Virus record (IMG/VR): IMGVR_UViG_3300027842_000093
Span: 1-64,000 of that record
Source of the DNA: a virus
Taxonomy: Duplodnaviria; Caudoviricetes
Length of the DNA: 64,000 nucleotides
Strand: one strand, 5' to 3'
This document shows positions 16,261 to 47,098 of the stretch, piece after piece; position 1 is the first letter of the stretch; every line of letters begins with the position of its first letter. The position numbers and the translations under genes are program-made. The notes beneath the pieces were generated by a model. The model saw only the letters and a list, made by a program, of their open reading frames with translations. It was not told where the DNA came from and did not search any database.

Positions 16261-17322
16261 TTGGAGCGCAAACTTGCATCGATACAGAAAGTAGCCGACA
16301 TTCTTTCACACGAGAATGCAGACAAGCTTGAGATTTGTAAAATTCTTGGTTGGAATGCCGTTGTATTAAAGGGACAATTCAAGAAGGACGAGCTTGTAGT
16401 GTACGTAGAGACGGATGCAGTTCTTCCTGAAGGCCGACCTGAATGGGAATTTATGCGGGAAAGACATTTCAGAGTGAAGACAATCCGCTTGCGCGGGGTT
16501 GTTTCGCAAGGGTTGGTATTTCCACTTACGATTCTACCACCACCTGTTTATGGACCAGAAGAAGTTTTGGGAAGTTCCACTGGTATTACAACTTCCATTA
16601 GACAAATTTCTGGGTATTTTCAAGGGCAGGATGTTACCGAACTCCTGGGGATAACGAAGTACGAACCCTACGTACCTGCCCAACTTGCTGGAAAGGTGAA
16701 AGGTTCCTTCCCAGGTTTCCTACGCAAGACAGATGAAACTCGGATTCAAACTGTGCCGGACGTTCTCATTCGCCATGCTGGAAAGTTGTTTTACATTACG
16801 GAAAAGCTTGATGGAACCTCAGCCACCTATTTCCTGAACAACGGAACCTTTGGTGTTTGCTCCAGGAACTTGGAACTTTCAGAGGACGATTCCAACATTT
16901 ACTGGAAGGTAGCAAAGTCCTTAAACTTGCAAGAGCGCCTGGCTAAATTGGGTGGCAACTTCGCAATTCAAGGGGAGCTTGTTGGAAATGGAATTCAAAA
17001 GAACAAATACAATTTGCCGGATGTGAAGTTTTTTCTGTTCAACATCTTCGATATCGACAAGCAAGCTTATTTGAATTATGACGATTTCAGACAGGCAGCT
17101 AAAGTTTTGGAATTAGAAACGGTTCCCGTTGTTTCAATAATGGCACTGCGACATACAGTTGAGGAGTTGGTTGAACTTTCTAAGGGACAGAGCGCATTGA
17201 ATAAAAATACACAGCGAGAAGGAATTATTTGGCGAACGATGGTAGAAGATACGGATGTTGAGTTGGGTCGTTTATCTTTTAAAATTATCAACCCTGAATT
17301 TCTTTTAAAATTCGATGAATAA
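16261..17322 (+). CDS. ATP-dependent RNA ligase (DRB0094 / Rnl2-like)
   Basis: N-terminal HENADKLE OB region, FPGFLRKTDETRIQ, motif I TEKLDGTS, QGELVG, FNIF, REGII, SFKII. Confidence 0.9.
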   Translation: MERKLASIQKVADILSHENADKLEICKILGWNAVVLKGQFKKDELVVYVETDAVLPEGRPEWEFMRERHFRVKTIRLRGVVSQGLVFPLTILPPPVYGPEEVLGSSTGITTSIRQISGYFQGQDVTELLGITKYEPYVPAQLAGKVKGSFPGFLRKTDETRIQTVPDVLIRHAGKLFYITEKLDGTSATYFLNNGTFGVCSRNLELSEDDSNIYWKVAKSLNLQERLAKLGGNFAIQGELVGNGIQKNKYNLPDVKFFLFNIFDIDKQAYLNYDDFRQAAKVLELETVPVVSIMALRHTVEELVELSKGQSALNKNTQREGIIWRTMVEDTDVELGRLSFKIINPEFLLKFDE

Positions 17323-33817: not shown

Positions 33818-33947
33818 TTGGCCGTGTAAGTGTGGGCATATTTCTCATATCCATTTCCTGGGTGAAGAATTATGCCGCTGCGTTTGGTACGAACCGATTG
33901 ACAATCTTTCTTATGTTGAATTGATGGCGAAGAAGAAATTAAAATGA
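33798..33947 (+). CDS. DNL-tag family small CxCGH protein (not in the ORF track)
   Basis: Manual translation: MEKYPSDWPCKCGHISHIHFLGEELCRCVWYEPIDNLSYVELMAKKKLK. Confidence 0.75.
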   Translation: MEKYPSDWPCKCGHISHIHFLGEELCRCVWYEPIDNLSYVELMAKKKLK

Positions 33948-34732
33948 TTAAAGGCACAATTGACAACACTCCTATTCTTAAAGTGTATTCTGTAGGGCTT
34001 ACCATTGGATTCTTTGTTGGGCTTGTTTTTGGGTACGCAATTTGGGGGTTGCGATGAATAAAGAAACTGTTATTAAAATTATTTTGATTGTTCTTGTGTC
34101 CCTTTGTTTCTACCAAGCTTGTAGGTGTTTGGCGTTTCACCCCAAGATTGAATACATCGATGACGGTGCTACTGTAAATTTAAAGTAGGACGTGTTATAA
34201 TAAAATAAAGGAGAAATAAAATGAAATTGGGATTCAAAGTAGGATTCATGACAACGCTGGGTGTGTTGACCGCATACGCTTTGTTTCAGCTTGGAGCGCA
34301 AGCATTGGTTACGTTTGTGTTGGCACCGTTAGTTAACTTGTTGGGACTGTAATGGAACGAATCATCCTTACCAAATCTGTTCAGCATATGTTCAAACCTC
34401 CGTATACTGGAACTTTAATTAGGCGGCAAGGTGGAGAACGCATTACGGTAATCAGGGATGGACGCAAGAGTAGAGAGACGTGGAGTTATAGATTGTGGAG
34501 GAAATTACCCAAATGAGATTCCATTTCATTTATCATGACGGTAGCGAACTTTTATTCGAAGCAAGCGAAGCGAGACATTTTACCGGGCACGTAGTTTTGA
34601 CCGATGCCAAACTTATAGAAAAAGTTGCAGGTAATTACGGTATGGACCTCATCCCAGAAGGGAAAGTATTCCCACGATTTAATCTCGCCCTCAATGGCAA
34701 TCTCTTGGGCATGTGGCCGGAGGAAGAAGATA

Positions 34733-35524: not shown

Positions 35525-36046
35525 ATGAATATTTTGTTTCTCGATTTTGATGGTGTTTTAAATTCCAAGCAACACTTTCTTATGGACGAGGAGAAAGAAC
35601 TTCCTGGGCAAGAGACACTTATTATGGCTGACTTCGAATTTATGAAATCTGGAATCAACGCAAACAACATGTGGTGCTTGAAGTACATCCTAAATAACGT
35701 TCCAGATTTGAAGATTGTTCTTTCTACTTCCTGGCGCACTCATTTTGAGATTGAACAATTCAAGGAGTTGTTCAAACATTATGGGTTGGATGGAGAACGG
35801 ATTATTGGTAAGACACCAAAGAAATTCTCATCTGAAAGAATGCATGAGATTCATTTGTGGCTTGAAGACAATAAAGATGTAAAGAAATGGATAGCTTTGG
35901 ACGACCATGCGGTGTTCAACCTGGAAGACCCTGACAAACAGAATGAAGTGTTGACGGATAGCTGGAATGGGTTGACGATGAATGAAGCATTCAAAATCAT
36001 TAAGCATTTTAAGCCTGATTTTGAAGAGCCAGTCCTTTACATTTAA
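35525..36046 (+). CDS. HAD-family phosphatase (RNA-repair-associated type)
   Basis: ILFLDFDGVLN, IVLSTSWR, RMHEIHLWL, IALDD, GLT. Confidence 0.85.
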   Translation: MNILFLDFDGVLNSKQHFLMDEEKELPGQETLIMADFEFMKSGINANNMWCLKYILNNVPDLKIVLSTSWRTHFEIEQFKELFKHYGLDGERIIGKTPKKFSSERMHEIHLWLEDNKDVKKWIALDDHAVFNLEDPDKQNEVLTDSWNGLTMNEAFKIIKHFKPDFEEPVLYI

Positions 36047-36049
36047 CCC

Positions 36050-36078
36050 TTGATTTCGTCCCCTTTTTCTGCTACACT
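36050..36078 (+). promoter_or_regulatory. sigma70-type promoter (leaderless gene follows)
   Basis: AACCC-TTGATT-N17-TACACT with TG; ATG at 36084. Confidence 0.7.
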
Positions 36079-36083
36079 GTATT

Positions 36084-36794
36084 ATGAGAATTGTTAAAAT
36101 GCTTTCATTTCTAACCCTTTTATCTGCCTTATTTGGATGCGAAAAAACCACTCCAAACATCCCTATTGTGATTGTGGCGGGACAGAGTAATGCGGTAGGT
36201 TTTGGGCAGCACACTCCATCACCTGCCAATCCTAAAATTATCTGGCGTGGGTTGGATTTCCCAAGAGGTATCGGAGTTTCCTTCGCTGAAGCTTATTTGC
36301 AAAGGACTCTTCAATCTAAAATAATTGTGGTTCAATGTGCGGTAGGCGGAACAAGTATTGAGCAATGGCAACCAGGGAGTGTCTTGTACGAGCAGTGCTT
36401 ACAAATAGTTGGGCAGGTTAAGAAAGAGTATCCGACCTCCTACATCGCCACAATCCTTTTCTGGCAGGGAGAAGCGGATACCCAATTCCTTAACATTCCG
36501 TGGGCGGATAAGTTTACGAATGTCGTAAGGGCATTTCGATACGACTTACAGATTAAAAATCTACCAGTGGTTTTCTGTCAGATTCACAACCACGCTGAAG
36601 AATCTACTTACCCCTCTTGGGCTGAAATTCAAAAGGAACAAGCTTCTGTATCACTGCCTTTCGTTACGATGGTAGGGACCTCTGATACTCAGATGGCAGA
36701 TTCATTGCACGTAGGACCGCAGGGTTTGGTTGTGGTGGGGCGTAGAATGGCCGCTGCTTATTTCAGGCTGTTTACTAATTTGTGCGGTTGTTAA
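36084..36794 (+). CDS. SASA-family carbohydrate O-acetylesterase, predicted lipoprotein
   Basis: Signal peptide with lipobox-like LFGC; AGQSNA, AVGGTSI, FWQGEAD, DSLH. Confidence 0.85.
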   Translation: MRIVKMLSFLTLLSALFGCEKTTPNIPIVIVAGQSNAVGFGQHTPSPANPKIIWRGLDFPRGIGVSFAEAYLQRTLQSKIIVVQCAVGGTSIEQWQPGSVLYEQCLQIVGQVKKEYPTSYIATILFWQGEADTQFLNIPWADKFTNVVRAFRYDLQIKNLPVVFCQIHNHAEESTYPSWAEIQKEQASVSLPFVTMVGTSDTQMADSLHVGPQGLVVVGRRMAAAYFRLFTNLCGC

Positions 36795-36802
36795 AATAAC
36801 CC

Positions 36803-36831
36803 TTGACAAGAATGGGTTCTCCTGCTATACT
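36803..36831 (+). promoter_or_regulatory. sigma70-type promoter driving the non-coding locus
   Basis: AACCC-TTGACA-N17-TATACT with TG; no ORF of 60 aa or more in the next 620 nt. Confidence 0.85.
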
Positions 36832-36836
36832 AAGTT

Positions 36837-36920
36837 TGAGGGACGGTTAGCTGGTTCGAGTCCAGCCTTGGGGCCTTTGGGAACCAAAAGTAATCTTAGA
36901 AGGTAAAGATGGCCCTCACA
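36837..36920 (+). ncRNA. circularly permuted tRNA-like RNA (Y RNA/YrlA-like topology)
   Basis: Closing stem TGAGGG/CCCTCA; T-arm GCTGG-TTCGAGT-CCAGC comes first, then an imperfect closed hairpin, then TA plus D-arm ATCTT-AGAAGGTA-AAGAT. Confidence 0.6.
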
Positions 36921-36939
36921 AATTTAGAAGTTCTTTGAA

Positions 36940-37430
36940 AGATTTGGCTCAGCGTTTGCGGTGGAGATAACTTCATACTTGCGCTGCTAAAAGGGTTTGA
37001 TCAACCCATCCTGAAAGAAGAACCGCTAGGGTTAGCTTTAGAGCCAGCAAATCTACCAGTAGGTAGACACCAGCGTAATATGCGTGTAAGTGGGCCACTC
37101 TTATAATTGAAGGCCCATTGAAAGGGATGAACTAGTTAAATTCCACAGGTGATATATCAATTTGATTCTGCGGTAGGAGTACGATCCATATACCGTTGCT
37201 AGACGTGTAAAACAGGGAACTTTCGTACAAAGCAAAGACGTTTAATAAGCAGACGACCTGTTCAGAATCATTAATTCTCGACCAACTCAAAAGGGTCGTT
37301 CAGGGGCATAGCTCACCCCGCCTATCAGTAATGGTAACGCATGATGAGCTACAATATCTGGTGAAGATGCGGCCTAATGACCCGCCCCTCGTCCATGACT
37401 TGGGTAGTTCAAGAATCATAGAACGTCACT
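36940..37430 (+). ncRNA. large structured non-coding RNA, class unknown
   Basis: ORF-free, with at least 10 nested complementary segments (listed in findings). Confidence 0.6.
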
Positions 37431-37452
37431 AACAATTTAGAAAGGATTACAA

Positions 37453-37794
37453 ATGAATAAATTTATTCGAATAGCTATCTGGGCATTCATCGTAAGTATC
37501 TTGGCTTCTGGCATTGCTCTAACTAAAAGGGCATTTGCTGAGGATGTCAACGTTCTGTCACGTCAGTACAATCTTCTATTCACTGAGCTTCTTGTTAAGA
37601 AAGTAAAAACCATTGACAAGGGTTCTCCGGTTGTGATATATTTTAAAGATGGTTCAGAGGTAGCTGGCATTTACAAGGGTTACAGTGGATACGATGATTC
37701 TCTTTGGATAAAAGTTTATGGGGACTGGTTGCAGAGTGGATACGATTTGAATGAGTTGCAGGATGTAAGAGTGAAAGCAAAGGAGCCAGTGTGA
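37453..37794 (+). CDS. secreted/membrane hypothetical protein
   Basis: Signal-peptide-like N-terminus; AAGGA RBS. Confidence 0.5.
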   Translation: MNKFIRIAIWAFIVSILASGIALTKRAFAEDVNVLSRQYNLLFTELLVKKVKTIDKGSPVVIYFKDGSEVAGIYKGYSGYDDSLWIKVYGDWLQSGYDLNELQDVRVKAKEPV

Positions 37795-38105
37795 TAAATT
37801 TTTTAATTGTTATTAATCTATTTTTTGGATGCTTGGATATTTATTTTCATAATTACAGTTTAGCCGCATTTAATCTTGGTGCATTCCTGTGGTTAATTTC
37901 ATGAACAACCCTTGCGAATTCATTAAAGGTATTCACGACGACCCTTTCAGGCTTGTTAAGAATTTGACAGTGAAAGAGTATTACGCTTTGAAGGAACATG
38001 TAACTGGCTGTTCCGAATGCACAAGGCTCCTGGATGATTTGGATGAGAAGTACAAAGACACTGCTCCAGGTAGCAGTGAATGGGACCAAACGAGGTACAA
38101 TTAAA

Positions 38106-38321
38106 ATGGCTGACATGCAAAAGGTGGCAAGCTCAAACATCGGGTCAATTGGTTACGACAAATCCTCTTGTACCCTTTACGTTCAATTCACATCTGGTGG
38201 ATTATACAAAGTGGCTGATGTCGATGAGGGTGTGTTCGACCGATTTAAGTTGGCTAAGAGTAAGGGAAAGTTTTTCAACCAAGAAATAAAGCCGAGCTAT
38301 AAAGTAGAAAAGGTATCGTGA
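38106..38321 (+). CDS. KTSC domain protein
   Basis: VASSNIGSIGYD...LYVQFTSGGLY...AKSKGKFFNQEIK. Confidence 0.9.
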   Translation: MADMQKVASSNIGSIGYDKSSCTLYVQFTSGGLYKVADVDEGVFDRFKLAKSKGKFFNQEIKPSYKVEKVS

Positions 38322-38675
38322 ACACGGAACTCGCTTGTACAAAAAAGCGCAAGTATAAAACTAAAGAACTTGCTACAATCGCTGGAGCATACCAGGAACT
38401 AAGGACGCCAAACAAGCTAAGGGTATATCAGTGCCCACGTTGCAATCAGTGGCACTTGACAAAGACTGATCACGCATTTAAGAAGGCAGGTATATTGTGA
38501 CGCCCTGCATAATGTGCCACAAAGAATTTGAAAAAGCTCAATTAGATTTTCTGGAACGCTGTGATGATTGTTTTAAATTGTACATGACGATGCCCGAAGC
38601 AGACAGACCAAAGCTGGGCGTTCCATTCGTGCCTATTTATAACGGTAAAGACAAATACGGATTTTAGAGAATAAC

Positions 38676-39806
38676 ATGCAAGATCCTCGCAGCTATTTTT
38701 CAGACAATCAATTATTTGATTTGGAAACGCTTAAGCAACATTGTGAACATCATGGTGTTTGGTCCAACACGTCCGAACGATTTCCCAATCTTACTCTGCT
38801 CAAGTATAAAGACGAAGTGCAATGGGGGGACAAACCCTGGACCTCGTTTGCCAGAATGTCCAGGGGGCTTGTAGTTGATATGAAGAATCAAACTATTTTA
38901 GCGCATGGATTTAACAAATTCTTCAATATAAATCAGCAGCCAGAAACCAATTACGAAATCCTGAAAGACCAGAAGGGATTCGAAGTGTCAGAAAAGCTAG
39001 ATGGTTCGTGTCTTGTATCATTTTTGAATCCGAATGACAACCAGTTTTACCTCACCACAACTGGTTCTTTTGATTCTGAGCATGGGAAGGTAGGCACCGA
39101 GCTTTTCAGGCAAATGCTGTGTTGCCCTAAAATAGCCGCTTATGCGGCCATGGGAACGTTCATCTTTGAATTAATCGATGCGAGATTTCGTATCGTTATT
39201 AATTATCGAGCCAAAGGATACGAAGACGGCCTGTATCTCATTGGGTACAGGACCAGGGAAGGTCGCTTGCTTACCTACGCTGAGGTGCAGGAATTAGCCA
39301 CCCAGCTTGCCCTACCTTGCATGAACACCTACGCTTTCGAGTCCTTGGACCAACTCATAGAAAAGACGAAGGAATTGCCTTTATCGGAGGAGGGTTACGT
39401 TTTGCGTTATCCTGATGGGTTAATGGTTAAAATTAAGGGAACTGCCTACCTCCAGGCTCACAGGTTTGTTAGCCAACTCTCTGACAAGCACCTTCTTGAA
39501 TCTTTGATAGAGGGCGTTGAAGACCCCTTAATTGAAATCTGCCCAGATGAATTCCGCCAGGAAGTAGTTGAGAAGATCACTTATTTTAAATTACGCAAGC
39601 TCGACATTTTGAATCAGTGTTACAAATACTTTGCTGAAGCTCCAAAAGAAGATAGAAAGACATTTGCCCTGTGGGTAATTAAAAATGTGAAGCCGAGTTT
39701 GAAGGGCTGCTTATTTCAATTGATTGATTGCAAGCCGTTGAAAGATAAGGACTTGTATGGTATAATTGAAAGAACGGAGAAGCCGAGTACGGTGACAAGA
39801 ATATGA
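38676..39806 (+). CDS. T4 Rnl1-like RNA ligase
   Basis: SRGLV, FNKFFN, motif I SEKLDGS, FIFEL, EEGYVL, MVKIKG. Confidence 0.88.
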   Translation: MQDPRSYFSDNQLFDLETLKQHCEHHGVWSNTSERFPNLTLLKYKDEVQWGDKPWTSFARMSRGLVVDMKNQTILAHGFNKFFNINQQPETNYEILKDQKGFEVSEKLDGSCLVSFLNPNDNQFYLTTTGSFDSEHGKVGTELFRQMLCCPKIAAYAAMGTFIFELIDARFRIVINYRAKGYEDGLYLIGYRTREGRLLTYAEVQELATQLALPCMNTYAFESLDQLIEKTKELPLSEEGYVLRYPDGLMVKIKGTAYLQAHRFVSQLSDKHLLESLIEGVEDPLIEICPDEFRQEVVEKITYFKLRKLDILNQCYKYFAEAPKEDRKTFALWVIKNVKPSLKGCLFQLIDCKPLKDKDLYGIIERTEKPSTVTRI

Positions 39807-41010: not shown

Positions 41011-41463
41011 TAAACTTGTTACTGTCTTCTAATGTGCTCTTGCTGCTCTCTACCCTCGTATTGTTGAGGCGCGATAGATTGGTAAGGGTAGCGCGTAAAC
41101 AACACAAACGATTGCCGAGATAAATAATGGAAACATCTGCGATCAATTTAACTGGAACTCCGGGTTTCTGGACATTTGTTTTTGTTCACCCCTGTCTATC
41201 ATTCTTCGCTTTTTGTTTTTTAGTATGGGCTTTCTTTGGCACCATCACAGATATTTTAATTGCATGGAGCAAAAGGAAATAATGGACAAAGTAGAAAGAG
41301 CAATTTTTCTTAAGTTTTTGAATTACAGTATTGTTACAATGAACTGGTTTGTTAGGCGCGTTGAAAAGAAATACGCCAGTGAGCTTGACCCCGAACAAGT
41401 TGCAGAGGTTAAAGAATTATTGAAAAAGTTAGAGGTAGAAAGAGACGGACTGGAGCACGAAGA

Positions 41464-45880: not shown

Positions 45881-47098
45881 ATGAATACCGTTGAACAGTT
45901 TACGCAACTCATACTTGATTGTCAACCAATTGACCTTTACGACTTTAAAGAAGTCGTAGGCGAACTTTTACCGTTAGAAGATTGTCAACAAGATCCGCAG
46001 TGGCACGGAGAAAAATCGGTCCTGGCACATACCAATCTTGTGATGAAAGAGACGCTTGAGCAGATGCAAAACCTCCGCCAAGGTTTCCCAAGGATTGCTT
46101 TGTATATTGCAGCTTTGTTACACGATGTGGGGAAACCAGATACGGCCAAGTTAAAAACCAATGGACATAATTCGTTCCATGGGCACGAGAAAGCGGGTGT
46201 GTGGAGAGCAAAAGAATTCCTGAAGAAATATTTCCCACAATTTAATTTTAGACAGCGGGACTTGATTCTGAATCTCGTTGAGTATCACGGCCACCCCAAG
46301 AGAATGATTGAGGATGGTTCACAGGATGATAGGTTCAAGCGCCTGTCCCTTGAAGTGCCAACTCATCTTGTTTACAACCTGGAGATTGCCGACTTCAAAG
46401 GTCGAATCGCCAACGATATTCCAAAGTCCTTGATTGTCCTTGACCAATTCAAGAAAAAGTGTGAGGACCTTGATATTTATGGGAAAGCGTACCAGATTCC
46501 CAATTCGAAGGAATTAACAAACCTCCAGTATTCTATTTTCAGATGGAACATTCTAATGCACCACGATGAAGATACTAATCAAAAAGAGATTGACAGAGTT
46601 ATCAAATTGACTGATAGACCGAATCCTTTGGAGCTTACTTTATTGGTTGGTTGCCCCGGTTCCGGGAAGACAACCTATCGAAACACATTGACAAATAGCA
46701 ACGTTATTTCTATGGATGACGAAAGGCAACGTCTTTGTGGCACCCCCAACGATATGTCTAGAAATCAAGAGGTTTTTAATAACTGCTTCAGAGAACTTAA
46801 CAAGAATATGAAGGCAGGTGAAAATGTCGTTTGGGACGCAACCTCTTACAGCCGCAAAGCCCGTAAACCCCTCCTAGAATCGGCTAGGAACCACGGAGCC
46901 AAGGTCAACCTCATCTACTGGGACCTCGCCATAGAAACCCTCTTAAAACGAAACGCTGAGCGTGAGAAGGTGGTTCCAGAGGACATTGTGTGGCGGTTTT
47001 ATAAAACAATTGAAACCCCGGCATCTTACGAGTACGATCAGCTTTTCGTATTTGATGACAAAGAGCAGGATTATGAAAAAGGAGAAAAAGCAACCTGA
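45881..47098 (+). CDS. HD-domain + P-loop polynucleotide kinase (AAA_33) fusion
   Basis: QDPQWHGE..V..HT, ALLHDVGKP, FHGHE; LVGCPGSGKTT, VVWDATS...RK, RNAERE. Confidence 0.85.
   Translation: MNTVEQFTQLILDCQPIDLYDFKEVVGELLPLEDCQQDPQWHGEKSVLAHTNLVMKETLEQMQNLRQGFPRIALYIAALLHDVGKPDTAKLKTNGHNSFHGHEKAGVWRAKEFLKKYFPQFNFRQRDLILNLVEYHGHPKRMIEDGSQDDRFKRLSLEVPTHLVYNLEIADFKGRIANDIPKSLIVLDQFKKKCEDLDIYGKAYQIPNSKELTNLQYSIFRWNILMHHDEDTNQKEIDRVIKLTDRPNPLELTLLVGCPGSGKTTYRNTLTNSNVISMDDERQRLCGTPNDMSRNQEVFNNCFRELNKNMKAGENVVWDATSYSRKARKPLLESARNHGAKVNLIYWDLAIETLLKRNAEREKVVPEDIVWRFYKTIETPASYEYDQLFVFDDKEQDYEKGEKAT

What the first reader, a model, noticed from the sequence alone, without database searches (positions are those of the whole stretch)
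36940..37430. ~490-nt ORF-free, highly base-paired region: candidate large structured ncRNA
Seen in sequence: this is the longest non-coding gap in a gene-dense window and it contains nested complementary segments. These are TGGCTC 36945/GAGCCA 37041, GCGGT 36958/ACCGC 37022, GGGTT 36993/AACCC 37003, TCTACC 37052/GGTAGA 37062, TGGGCC 37091/GGCCCA 37112, long-range TGAACTA 37128/TAGTTCA 37405, TGATTCTG 37163/CAGAATCA 37263, CGGTA 37171/TACCG 37191, CGACC 37279/GGTCG 37294, AGGGGC 37302/GCCCCT 37384 and TAGCTCA 37309/TGAGCTA 37345. ACAGGT 37145/ACCTGT 37256 would cross one of these, a possible pseudoknot. Established: phages carry large structured RNAs such as GOLLD and ROOL, often beside tRNAs. 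I cannot assign this one to a class.
Basis: partly seen in the sequence, partly recalled or inferred. Interest (0 to 1): 0.75.

Follow-up and report, generated by a model that had tools for sequence, protein, structure and literature searches.

The report
Long phage leader with tRNA mimic
The flagged stretch is a real non-coding gap in an uncultivated soil phage that most likely is a patchwork RNA leader starting with a tRNA look-alike and holding one sharply conserved 105-base element, not a proven single large folded RNA.

Summary
The ORF-free gap is real, but it spans 36795-37452, not 36940-37430. It is the longest such gap in the 117-kb virus record. They are no more than chance gives: k-mer complementarity equals shuffles and fold z-scores run from -0.2 to -2.6.

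No Rfam family reaches threshold. That includes GOLLD, ROOL and tRNA.

They hold a near-consensus phage promoter (36803-36831, one of 9 copies). After it comes a circularly permuted tRNA-like module (36838-36917). Two related phages have the same module, and covariation supports it. It resembles the tRNA-like domain of YrlA Y RNAs but fails YrlA membership.

Inside the flagged region, only block A (36940-37046) and block B (37269-37317) recur in other metagenomes. Both are nearly identical there, while their flanks differ. Another contig lacks 37045-37268 altogether.

Best reading: a transcribed mosaic leader or ncRNA, not one ornate fold. No RNA data were available, and covariation could not be tested for the flagged part.

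The parts
36803..36831 (+). Sigma-70-type promoter: TTGACA, 17-nt spacer, TATACT, with TG before the -10 hexamer. The inferred transcription start is near 36838.
   Evidence: 11 of 12 consensus matches; one of 9 + strand copies of the same extended motif between 6.4 and 45 kb of the record. The other 8 are followed by a ribosome-binding site and ATG within about 10-45 nt. A similar promoter precedes the o113 homologue in L050 and the tRNA-like modules in L137 and L138. The start site is inferred, not measured.
36838..36917 (+). Circularly permuted tRNA-like module. Closing stem 36838-36844 with 36911-36917; T-arm 36850-36866 (loop UUCGAGU); acceptor-like hairpin 36867-36890; UA; D-arm 36893-36910 (loop AGAAGGUA).
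   Evidence: Rfam YrlA gives a full-length but sub-threshold match: 18 bits against a gathering score of 69, E 0.67. Model R1, built only from L137 and L138, finds it at 35.7 bits, E about 1e-8. In the 3-sequence alignment A5, 54 of 54 cells pair and 9 of 18 pairs change on both sides. 0 of 500 shuffles reach this, and slid controls pair 37-59%. ARAGORN calls no tRNA here.
36917..36930 (+). Motif CACAAAUUUAGAAG directly after the module. A near copy lies at 37429-37443, just before the ribosome-binding site of the next gene.
   Evidence: The motif follows the module in all 3 phages. In L137 it runs straight into the ribosome-binding site and ATG. The repeat within the window scores 10, reached by 1.7% of 5000 shuffles and 1.6% of 1238 other windows. 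This is weak evidence.
36940..37046 (+). Block A: a 105-107-nt non-coding element that is nearly identical in contigs of three other metagenome runs. The predicted fold is a four-way junction closed by UGGCUC/GAGCCA.
   Evidence: run X2 has 0 differences over 36940-37044. X3 has 2 differences plus a 1-nt insertion over 36938-37046. X7 has 3 differences over 36940-37016. In X3 and X7 the flanks run on unlike the window. C37007T turns a G-C pair of the hairpin 36993-37007 into G-U; the insertion lies in that hairpin's loop; A36992G is unpaired in the predicted fold. Fold z-score is -1.10. No homologue in G001-G009 or L004-L048.
37047..37268 (+). Variable segment of about 224 nt, absent from one relative. 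It holds the local hairpins at 37052-37067 and 37091-37117.
   Evidence: table 5: an X2 contig joins 37044 directly to 37269. Fold z-scores: -2.63 for 37049-37127 and -0.19 for 37128-37268.
37269..37317 (+). Block B: a second recurring element, with the hairpin CGACC...GGUCG at 37279-37298.
   Evidence: X2 covers 37269-37307 with 1 difference; X3 record 3 covers 37270-37302 with 1 difference; X3 record 4 covers 37278-37317 with 5 differences. In X3 record 4 the block is preceded by a T-arm-like sequence. In X3 record 3 it is followed, 214 nt later, by an o113 homologue with 20 differences in 103 nt.
37302..37389 (+). It is unsupported.
   Evidence: Fold z-score -0.50 on +, -1.60 on -. No tRNA by ARAGORN, even at lowered thresholds, nor by Rfam at E up to 10. 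The X2 and X3 contigs diverge strongly right after 37307/37317.
37441..37794 (+). Ribosome-binding site AAAGGA (37441-37446) and ORF o113 (37453-37794, 113 aa, hydrophobic N-terminus). This is the first gene downstream of the promoter.
   Evidence: Homologues in L004, L006 and L050 at 41-54% identity. No Pfam or PHROG family.

Best explanation
The gap 36795-37452 is a transcribed, non-coding leader of about 615 nt, possibly processed into small RNAs. It belongs to the operon that starts with o113 and is driven by the phage promoter at 36803-36831.

The transcript begins, at or next to its first base, with a circularly permuted tRNA mimic (36838-36917). This has a T-arm, an acceptor stem closed by a loop, a D-arm, and a closing stem in place of the anticodon stem. 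It is built like the tRNA-like domain of bacterial YrlA Y RNAs.

The flagged 36940-37430 is a mosaic lying between that module and the ribosome-binding site. It is probably an acquired insert. It consists of one sharply conserved element of about 105 nt (block A), a dispensable segment of 224 nt, a second conserved element (block B), and a divergent tail. It is not one conserved ornate fold.

Inferred mechanism: the 5' tRNA mimic is recognised by tRNA-handling enzymes, or simply buries the 5' end and so stabilises or marks the transcript. Block A is a self-contained RNA element under strong sequence constraint, with an unknown ligand or partner.

Shown: the promoter motif class, the absence of ORFs, the module and its covariation, and the block-wise conservation with an indel. 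Inferred: transcription, the start site, processing, and any function.
For: Promoter: 11 of 12 consensus matches. It is one of 9 copies of one motif, and the only one with a long leader. Similar promoters stand before the o113 homologue of L050 and before the modules of L137 and L138. No + strand terminator-like site in 36000-38500.

Module: a model built from other phages finds it at E about 1e-8. 54 of 54 cells pair, 9 of 18 pairs are compensatory, and 0 of 500 shuffles reach this. The YrlA model aligns full length in the same arm order.

Mosaic: only 36940-37046 and 37269-37317 recur in other runs, at 0-3 differences for block A. A protein-coding stretch in one of the same runs shows 20 differences in 103 nt. 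One contig skips 224 nt.

Non-coding: a 1-nt insertion inside block A, no tblastx hit, and no repeats or iterons.

Insert model: the motif after the module recurs before the ribosome-binding site, and in L137 it runs straight into it.
Against: No RNA data: the run search listed no holder on record as RNA. The promoter and start site are consensus matches only.

The tRNA-like module has only 3 members, and the alignment counted was fitted to the structure. The same model scores other elements in unrelated phage tRNA clusters up to 32 bits, so 35.7 bits is not far above background.

The other-run evidence rests on 5 short contigs (151-460 nt, depth 2-4) from 3 runs. Unlike flanks could be assembly branch points. 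High identity could reflect recent exchange rather than selection.

Block A's fold is not thermodynamically distinctive (z -1.10). The 3 variants seen are too few to test it.

The direct-repeat and end-complementarity signals for an insert are weak (1.7% and 5.5% of shuffles).
Confidence: 0.5

Rival explanations
1. One reading: 36940-37430 is a single large structured ncRNA, a new class comparable to GOLLD or ROOL, with nested long-range helices.
For: It is the longest ORF-free stretch of the record, sits behind a strong promoter, and directly follows a tRNA-like element. An unrelated phage shows a YrlA-like mimic, a tRNA and then GOLLD near its RNA ligase. GOLLD itself has a poorly conserved 5' half and a linker that can hold tRNAs (passages of bioRxiv 10.1101/2024.12.08.627333). 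A weak 12-nt complementary match joins the two ends of the region.
Against: Complementarity and folding energy are at chance level. 224 nt, including arms of three proposed helices, are missing in a relative that keeps blocks A and B almost unchanged. Neither the 9 related phage records nor the 45 metagenome loci beside Rnl1 homologues hold a homologue. No Rfam family matches at E up to 10, apart from three weak matches (E 0.67-7.8) far below their thresholds.
Confidence: 0.12
2. A functionless spacer: debris of an insertion or recombination event in a hypervariable part of the early region. Blocks A and B look conserved only because they were exchanged recently between co-occurring phages.
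For: The closest syntenic relative (L050/L006) lacks the two upstream genes, the module and everything alignable in the leader. The indel and the unlike flanks fit frequent recombination. Direct-repeat-like motifs lie at both ends. Folding energy is unremarkable.
Against: Block A keeps the same sharp borders (36938/36940 to 37044/37046) in two contigs, of two runs filed under different studies; a third contig starts at 36940 and ends inside the block. Its differences fall in a loop, in an unpaired base and as G-C to G-U. It is far better conserved than the coding stretch seen in one of the same runs.
Confidence: 0.25
3. A DNA-level element, such as a replication origin, a packaging site or a cluster of protein-binding sites.
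For: It is a long ORF-free stretch with a near-palindrome around a GATC at 36993-37007.
Against: There are no direct repeats or iterons, no AT-rich stretch and no turn in GC skew. The X3 variant inserts a base in the centre of the near-palindrome. That spoils a symmetric DNA site but not an RNA hairpin loop.
Confidence: 0.05
4. The gap hides one or more small protein genes, or a decayed gene.
For: Short ORFs exist: 33 aa on + (37331-37432) and 39-52 aa on -.
Against: No ribosome-binding site precedes the + strand ORF. The - strand ORFs run against every other gene of the window. There is no tblastx similarity to related loci or to the rest of the genome at E below 0.3. A 1-nt insertion lies in the best-conserved block.
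Confidence: 0.03

Closest known systems
YrlA, bacterial Y RNA-like (Rfam RF02553; Chen et al. 2014, PMC4201824, passages read)
   Same: The order of elements matches: 5' strand of a closing stem, variable region, T-arm, acceptor-like stem-loop, D-arm, 3' strand of the closing stem. The Rfam model aligns over its full length. In L137 and L138 the acceptor stem has 7 pairs. According to the paper, this is the feature that let M. smegmatis YrlA be cut by RNase P and receive CCA.
   Different: The score is 18 bits against a gathering score of 69. There is no extended Ro60-binding helix, because the transcript appears to start at the closing stem. No TROVE/Ro60 gene was found in the record or in 9 relatives. 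The module heads an mRNA leader rather than being a free RNA of about 100 nt.
GOLLD (RF02032) and ROOL (RF03087), large phage ncRNAs near tRNA islands
   Same: Phage-borne, several hundred nt, ORF-free, and next to a tRNA-like element. In L064 and L065 a YrlA-like mimic and a tRNA precede GOLLD within 5 kb of an Rnl1-type ligase.
   Different: Neither model matches in the window, the whole record or 9 relatives. There is no comparative support for an ornate fold, and half of the region is dispensable in a relative.
Circularly permuted tRNA genes of algae and archaea; tRNA-like processing signals such as mascRNA at the MALAT1 3' end
   Same: A T-arm lies upstream of a D-arm with the acceptor ends joined by a loop. 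The tRNA-shaped element is embedded in a longer transcript.
   Different: No anticodon loop can form: the would-be anticodon stem is the open end that continues into the leader. No maturation to a functional tRNA is implied, and ARAGORN finds no tRNA.

Membership tests
YrlA / bacterial Y RNA (RF02553) | Score at or above the Rfam gathering threshold (69 bits) | tested here: not met
   18 bits, E 0.67, for 36827-36936. No match in the gathering-threshold scan of the window.
YrlA / bacterial Y RNA (RF02553) | tRNA-like domain with T-arm, acceptor-like stem-loop and D-arm in that order, inside a closing stem | tested here: met
   Full-length alignments to RF02553 and to model R1. All 18 modelled pairs form in the 3 sequences, and 9 pairs show compensatory changes.
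YrlA / bacterial Y RNA (RF02553) | Long terminal helix that binds Ro60, with its conserved motif (as described in PMC4201824) | tested here: not met
   The closing stem has only 6-7 pairs. Its 5' strand starts 7 nt after the -10 hexamer, so an extended helix would have to include promoter DNA.
YrlA / bacterial Y RNA (RF02553) | Encoded beside a Ro60 (TROVE, PF05731) gene | tested here: not met
   0 of 1 (own record, 59% complete) and 0 of 9 related records. The control genomes gave matches. The missing 41% of the genome was not seen.
GOLLD (RF02032) | Match to the conserved 3' domain model | tested here: not met
   No match at E up to 10 in 36700-37500. 0 of 10 records over threshold. The same library scored 288-306 bits in L064 and L065.
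ROOL (RF03087) | Match to the family model | tested here: not met
   No match. In one search no control genome matched either, so that call alone is weak.
tRNA / tmRNA | Cloverleaf with an anticodon arm, recognised by ARAGORN or RF00005 | tested here: not met
   0 genes in the window. Only implausible calls at lowered thresholds. No RF00005 match at E up to 10 in the gap.
Miniature transposable element (MITE-like insert) | Target-site duplication plus terminal inverted repeats, and multiple copies | tested here: inconclusive
   The flanking repeat is reached by 1.7% of shuffles and the terminal complementarity by 5.5%. There is no second copy in the record, in 9 relatives, or as exact words in three collections.

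The most novel reading that the evidence does not exclude
The promoter-proximal tRNA mimic and the 500 nt behind it form one new kind of modular phage RNA. It would be a Ro60-independent Y-RNA-like cap joined to exchangeable structured cassettes, with block A the most constrained. It sits in a tRNA-repair island (HAD_SAK_2, KTSC, Rnl1-type ligase, kinase) at the position where lake phages carry a YrlA-like mimic followed by GOLLD. It would act with, or as a decoy for, tRNA-directed repair or defence enzymes.
Probability: 0.12. Interest if true: 0.75.

Novelty: new variant of a known kind. Interest (0 to 1): 0.42.

Why it matters
If the tRNA mimic is real, Y-RNA-like tRNA mimicry occurs in phages without Ro60 and at the very 5' end of messages. 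That would give a simple, testable model of how phages use tRNA shape to stabilise, mark or process transcripts in genomes rich in tRNA-repair genes.

Block A is a compact, sharply bounded non-coding element of 105 nt. It is conserved across soil, wetland and lake-water samples, and no family accounts for it.

The negative result also matters. Hand-picked complementary segments in a long gap were at chance level here, so a list of this kind is not evidence of a large fold.

Tried and rejected
Rfam at gathering threshold on the window gave 0 matches. At E up to 10 on the gap it gave only YrlA at 18 bits, Zeta-pan at 16 bits and sR41 at 11 bits, all far below threshold.

blastn of the gap found nothing in the 50,697 phage records, in loci L004-L128 (blastn and nhmmer), or in 9 whole related records (best E 0.1). 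The one 15-nt match I inspected lies in coding DNA.

Single-protein locus searches with two window proteins found nothing.

Exact words of block A and block B gave 0 hits in viral contigs, metagenome contigs and genome contigs.

A single-sequence model of block A found only itself.

A second R1 hit at 41213-41309 (17 bits) was rejected. It matches only the D-loop insert of L138 and has no T-arm.

A pairwise alignment of our leader with the L050 leader showed that only the promoter aligns convincingly.

The run search listed no RNA holder. Run X4 laid no contig.

Relaxed ARAGORN gave only implausible calls. There were no direct repeats or iterons.

Linkage of the module to the Rnl1 ligase was rejected as a rule. 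In G003 and G005 the module and the ligase are tens of kb apart, and the neighbouring genes differ.

Literature searches found no description of promoter-proximal permuted tRNA mimics in phages. The supplements of PMC4201824 (list of phage YrlA RNAs) and PMC10690425 (about 10,000 viral candidate RNAs) were closed and may hold relatives.

Full report
**What the window is.** The window is the first 64 kb of a 117,490-bp IMG/VR virus record that CheckV rates 59% complete. All long ORFs lie on the + strand. Few proteins match Pfam or PHROGs, and the flagged region has no DNA match among 50,697 phage records. The one run that holds the whole stretch is labelled a soil metagenome and may be its source.

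The neighbourhood is rich in RNA-repair genes:
- HAD_SAK_2 (35525-36046) and a KTSC-domain protein (38034-38321).
- An Rnl1-type RNA ligase (38676-39806).
- A second ligase (16261-17322) and a kinase-like protein (45881-47098).

**Checking the observation.** The gap really runs from 36795 (end of a SASA-type esterase ORF) to 37452 (start of a 113-aa ORF, o113). With a 40-aa cut-off it is the longest + strand ORF-free stretch of the whole record: 546 nt, against 206 nt for the next.

They are what chance gives:
- Perfect complementary k-mer pairs in 36940-37430 number 113, 25, 6 and 1 for k = 5-8. Dinucleotide shuffles give 114, 27.8, 7.1 and 1.8.
- 85-94% of 239 other windows of this genome have as many or more.
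- The whole gap folds at z = -1.95 on + and -1.50 on - (20 shuffles each).
- With 200 shuffles the sub-blocks give -1.10 (36940-37048), -2.63 (37049-37127), -0.19 (37128-37268) and -0.50 (37296-37395).

So 'ORF-free and longest' is confirmed, and 'highly base-paired' is not.

**Known families.**
- Rfam at gathering threshold finds nothing in the window.
- At E up to 10 the gap gives only three weak matches.
- ARAGORN finds no tRNA or tmRNA in the window, and only implausible calls at lowered thresholds.
- GOLLD and ROOL models find nothing in this record or in 9 related records.
- There is no tblastx similarity to related loci, and there are no iterons or direct repeats.

At 36803-36831 lies TTGACA, a 17-nt spacer and TATACT, with a TG before the -10 hexamer (11 of 12 matches). 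The same extended motif occurs 9 times on the + strand between 6.4 and 45 kb. In the other 8 cases a ribosome-binding site and ATG follow within about 10-45 nt. Only this copy is followed by about 615 nt without a gene. No + strand terminator-like site lies between it and o113.

The weak YrlA match (36827-36936, 18 bits, full model length) pointed to a T-arm (loop UUCGAGU), a hairpin, and a D-arm-like hairpin (loop AGAAGGUA), all enclosed by a 6-7-bp stem. This is a circularly permuted tRNA shape.

I collected Rnl1 relatives and scanned 9 related phage records with the YrlA model. This gave two full-length sub-threshold matches: G005 at 31 bits and G003 at 29 bits. Both show the same layout:
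- a consensus promoter;
- the first strand of the closing stem 7 nt after the -10 hexamer;
- a variable loop and a T-arm;
- a 7-bp acceptor stem capped by a small loop;
- UA and a D-arm;
- the second strand of the closing stem, then the motif CACAAAUUU.

A covariance model built from those two alone recovers the window's element at 35.7 bits, E about 1e-8. In the three-way alignment all 54 cells pair and 9 of 18 pairs change on both sides. No shuffle out of 500 reaches this, and slid controls pair 37-59%.

Caveats:
- There are only three sequences.
- The alignment is fitted to the model.
- The model also scores elements in unrelated phage tRNA clusters up to 32 bits.
- The window's acceptor-like hairpin is more degenerate than the other two.

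**The flagged 36940-37430.** No full-length homologue could be fetched. Related loci and whole related records hold nothing alignable. In the closest syntenic relative (L050/L006, ligase 58% identical) the promoter is conserved. However, a different 225-nt leader precedes the o113 homologue, and the module, HAD_SAK_2 and the esterase are absent.

The only comparative data come from contigs of other public runs:
- Block A (36940-37046) recurs with 0 differences in 105 nt (X2), 2 differences plus a 1-nt insertion in 109 nt (X3), and 3 differences in 77 nt (X7).
- The flanks run on unlike the window. In X2 the upstream flank is recognisably the diverged end of a tRNA-like module.
- Block B (37269-37317) recurs in three contigs.
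- One X2 contig joins 37044 directly to 37269, so 224 nt are absent there.
- In X3 a stretch of the o113 homologue shows 20 differences in 103 nt, so block A is far better conserved than coding sequence in that run.
- The three variants in block A are a loop insertion, a G-C to G-U change in the hairpin 36993-37007, and a base that is unpaired in the predicted fold.

These variants fit an RNA hairpin and argue against a reading frame or a symmetric DNA site. They are too few for a test. The contigs are short (151-460 nt) and shallow, so unlike flanks may partly be assembly artefacts.

**A possible history.** The motif that follows the module (36917-36930) recurs just before the ribosome-binding site of o113 (37429-37443). 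In L137 the same motif runs straight into the ribosome-binding site and ATG. The repeat is reached by 1.7% of shuffles, and a 12-nt complementary match at the two ends by 5.5%. This weakly suggests that the flagged 500 nt were inserted into an originally short leader.

**Context from other phages.**
- In an unrelated group of phages with a distant Rnl1, the model found similar permuted tRNA mimics in 13 of 100 loci.
- In L064 and L065 the order is ligase, YrlA-like mimic (40-41 bits), tRNA-Pro, then GOLLD at 288-306 bits.
- One of those records is rated 100% complete and has no TROVE gene.
- A pattern scan found 118 matches in 145 loci. In 27 of them ARAGORN sees no tRNA, yet a T-arm, a closed acceptor hairpin and a D-arm follow each other.
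- In 12 such loci Rfam calls only tRNAs at gathering threshold.

So permuted tRNA mimics below the YrlA threshold look common in large phages, sometimes without Ro60. At least once, one precedes a giant ncRNA.

**Verdict.** The gap is most likely a transcribed mosaic leader or ncRNA. The tRNA-mimic cap is the part with real comparative support (about 0.8 that it is a true structured element). Block A is a credible but uncharacterised conserved RNA element. The claim of one large, highly paired RNA is not supported (about 0.12).

The module works like the tRNA-like domain of YrlA (Chen et al. 2014, passages read) but fails three of four membership features. Its function, whether 5'-end protection, processing by RNase P, or binding or decoying tRNA-directed enzymes of the repair island, is inference.

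Noticed in passing
L064:9665-10891 and L065:8301-9441: Within 5 kb downstream of a distant Rnl1-type ligase in an unrelated phage group lie a YrlA-like permuted tRNA mimic (40-41 bits, below threshold), a tRNA-Pro and then a GOLLD RNA (288-306 bits). The record holding L064 (322 kb, rated 100% complete) has no TROVE gene.
   Followed up: partly
L182-L295 (for example L184:9188-9232, L186:5004-5050, L212:6696-6738, L217:4058-4100): 27 of 118 pattern matches in 145 loci from IMG/VR phage contigs show a T-arm, a closed 7-bp acceptor hairpin, UA and a D-arm with no ARAGORN tRNA. They often lie inside tRNA clusters. Rfam at gathering threshold calls only tRNAs in the 12 loci tested.
   Followed up: partly
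L151:2200-3110 (- strand), also L163: A 405-kb phage contig carries tandem units of about 150-200 nt. At least two of the four units hold a T-arm, a closed acceptor-like stem and a D-arm, and the units share start and end motifs. ARAGORN calls none of them.
   Followed up: no
window 6491-45196: A conserved promoter class (AACCCTTGACA, 13 nt, CTGYTAYACT) occurs 9 times on the + strand of the early region.
   Followed up: partly
window 16261-17322, 35525-36046, 38034-38321, 38676-39806, 45881-47098; L001:10926-15761: The phage has a large RNA-repair gene set: two RNA ligases, a kinase-like protein, HAD_SAK_2, a KTSC-domain protein, and a 2H phosphoesterase (also weakly Acb1-like) domain inside a 1611-aa protein.
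   Followed up: no
L001:4358-8797; L002:12534-13514; L003:13534-16464; L003:9278-11791: Unusual large proteins: a 1479-aa protein with a low-molecular-weight phosphotyrosine phosphatase domain, two proteins with ice-binding-like domains, and an 837-aa Kelch-repeat protein.
   Followed up: no
window 33818-34494: This is the second-longest stretch without a + strand ORF of 60 aa or more (677 nt). It holds only small ORFs.
   Followed up: no
L297 (G014:283459-284490): The 350-kb phage that carries the permuted element of L184 encodes a TROVE (Ro60-like) protein (105 bits). That phage may therefore have a true Ro60/Y RNA pair.
   Followed up: no
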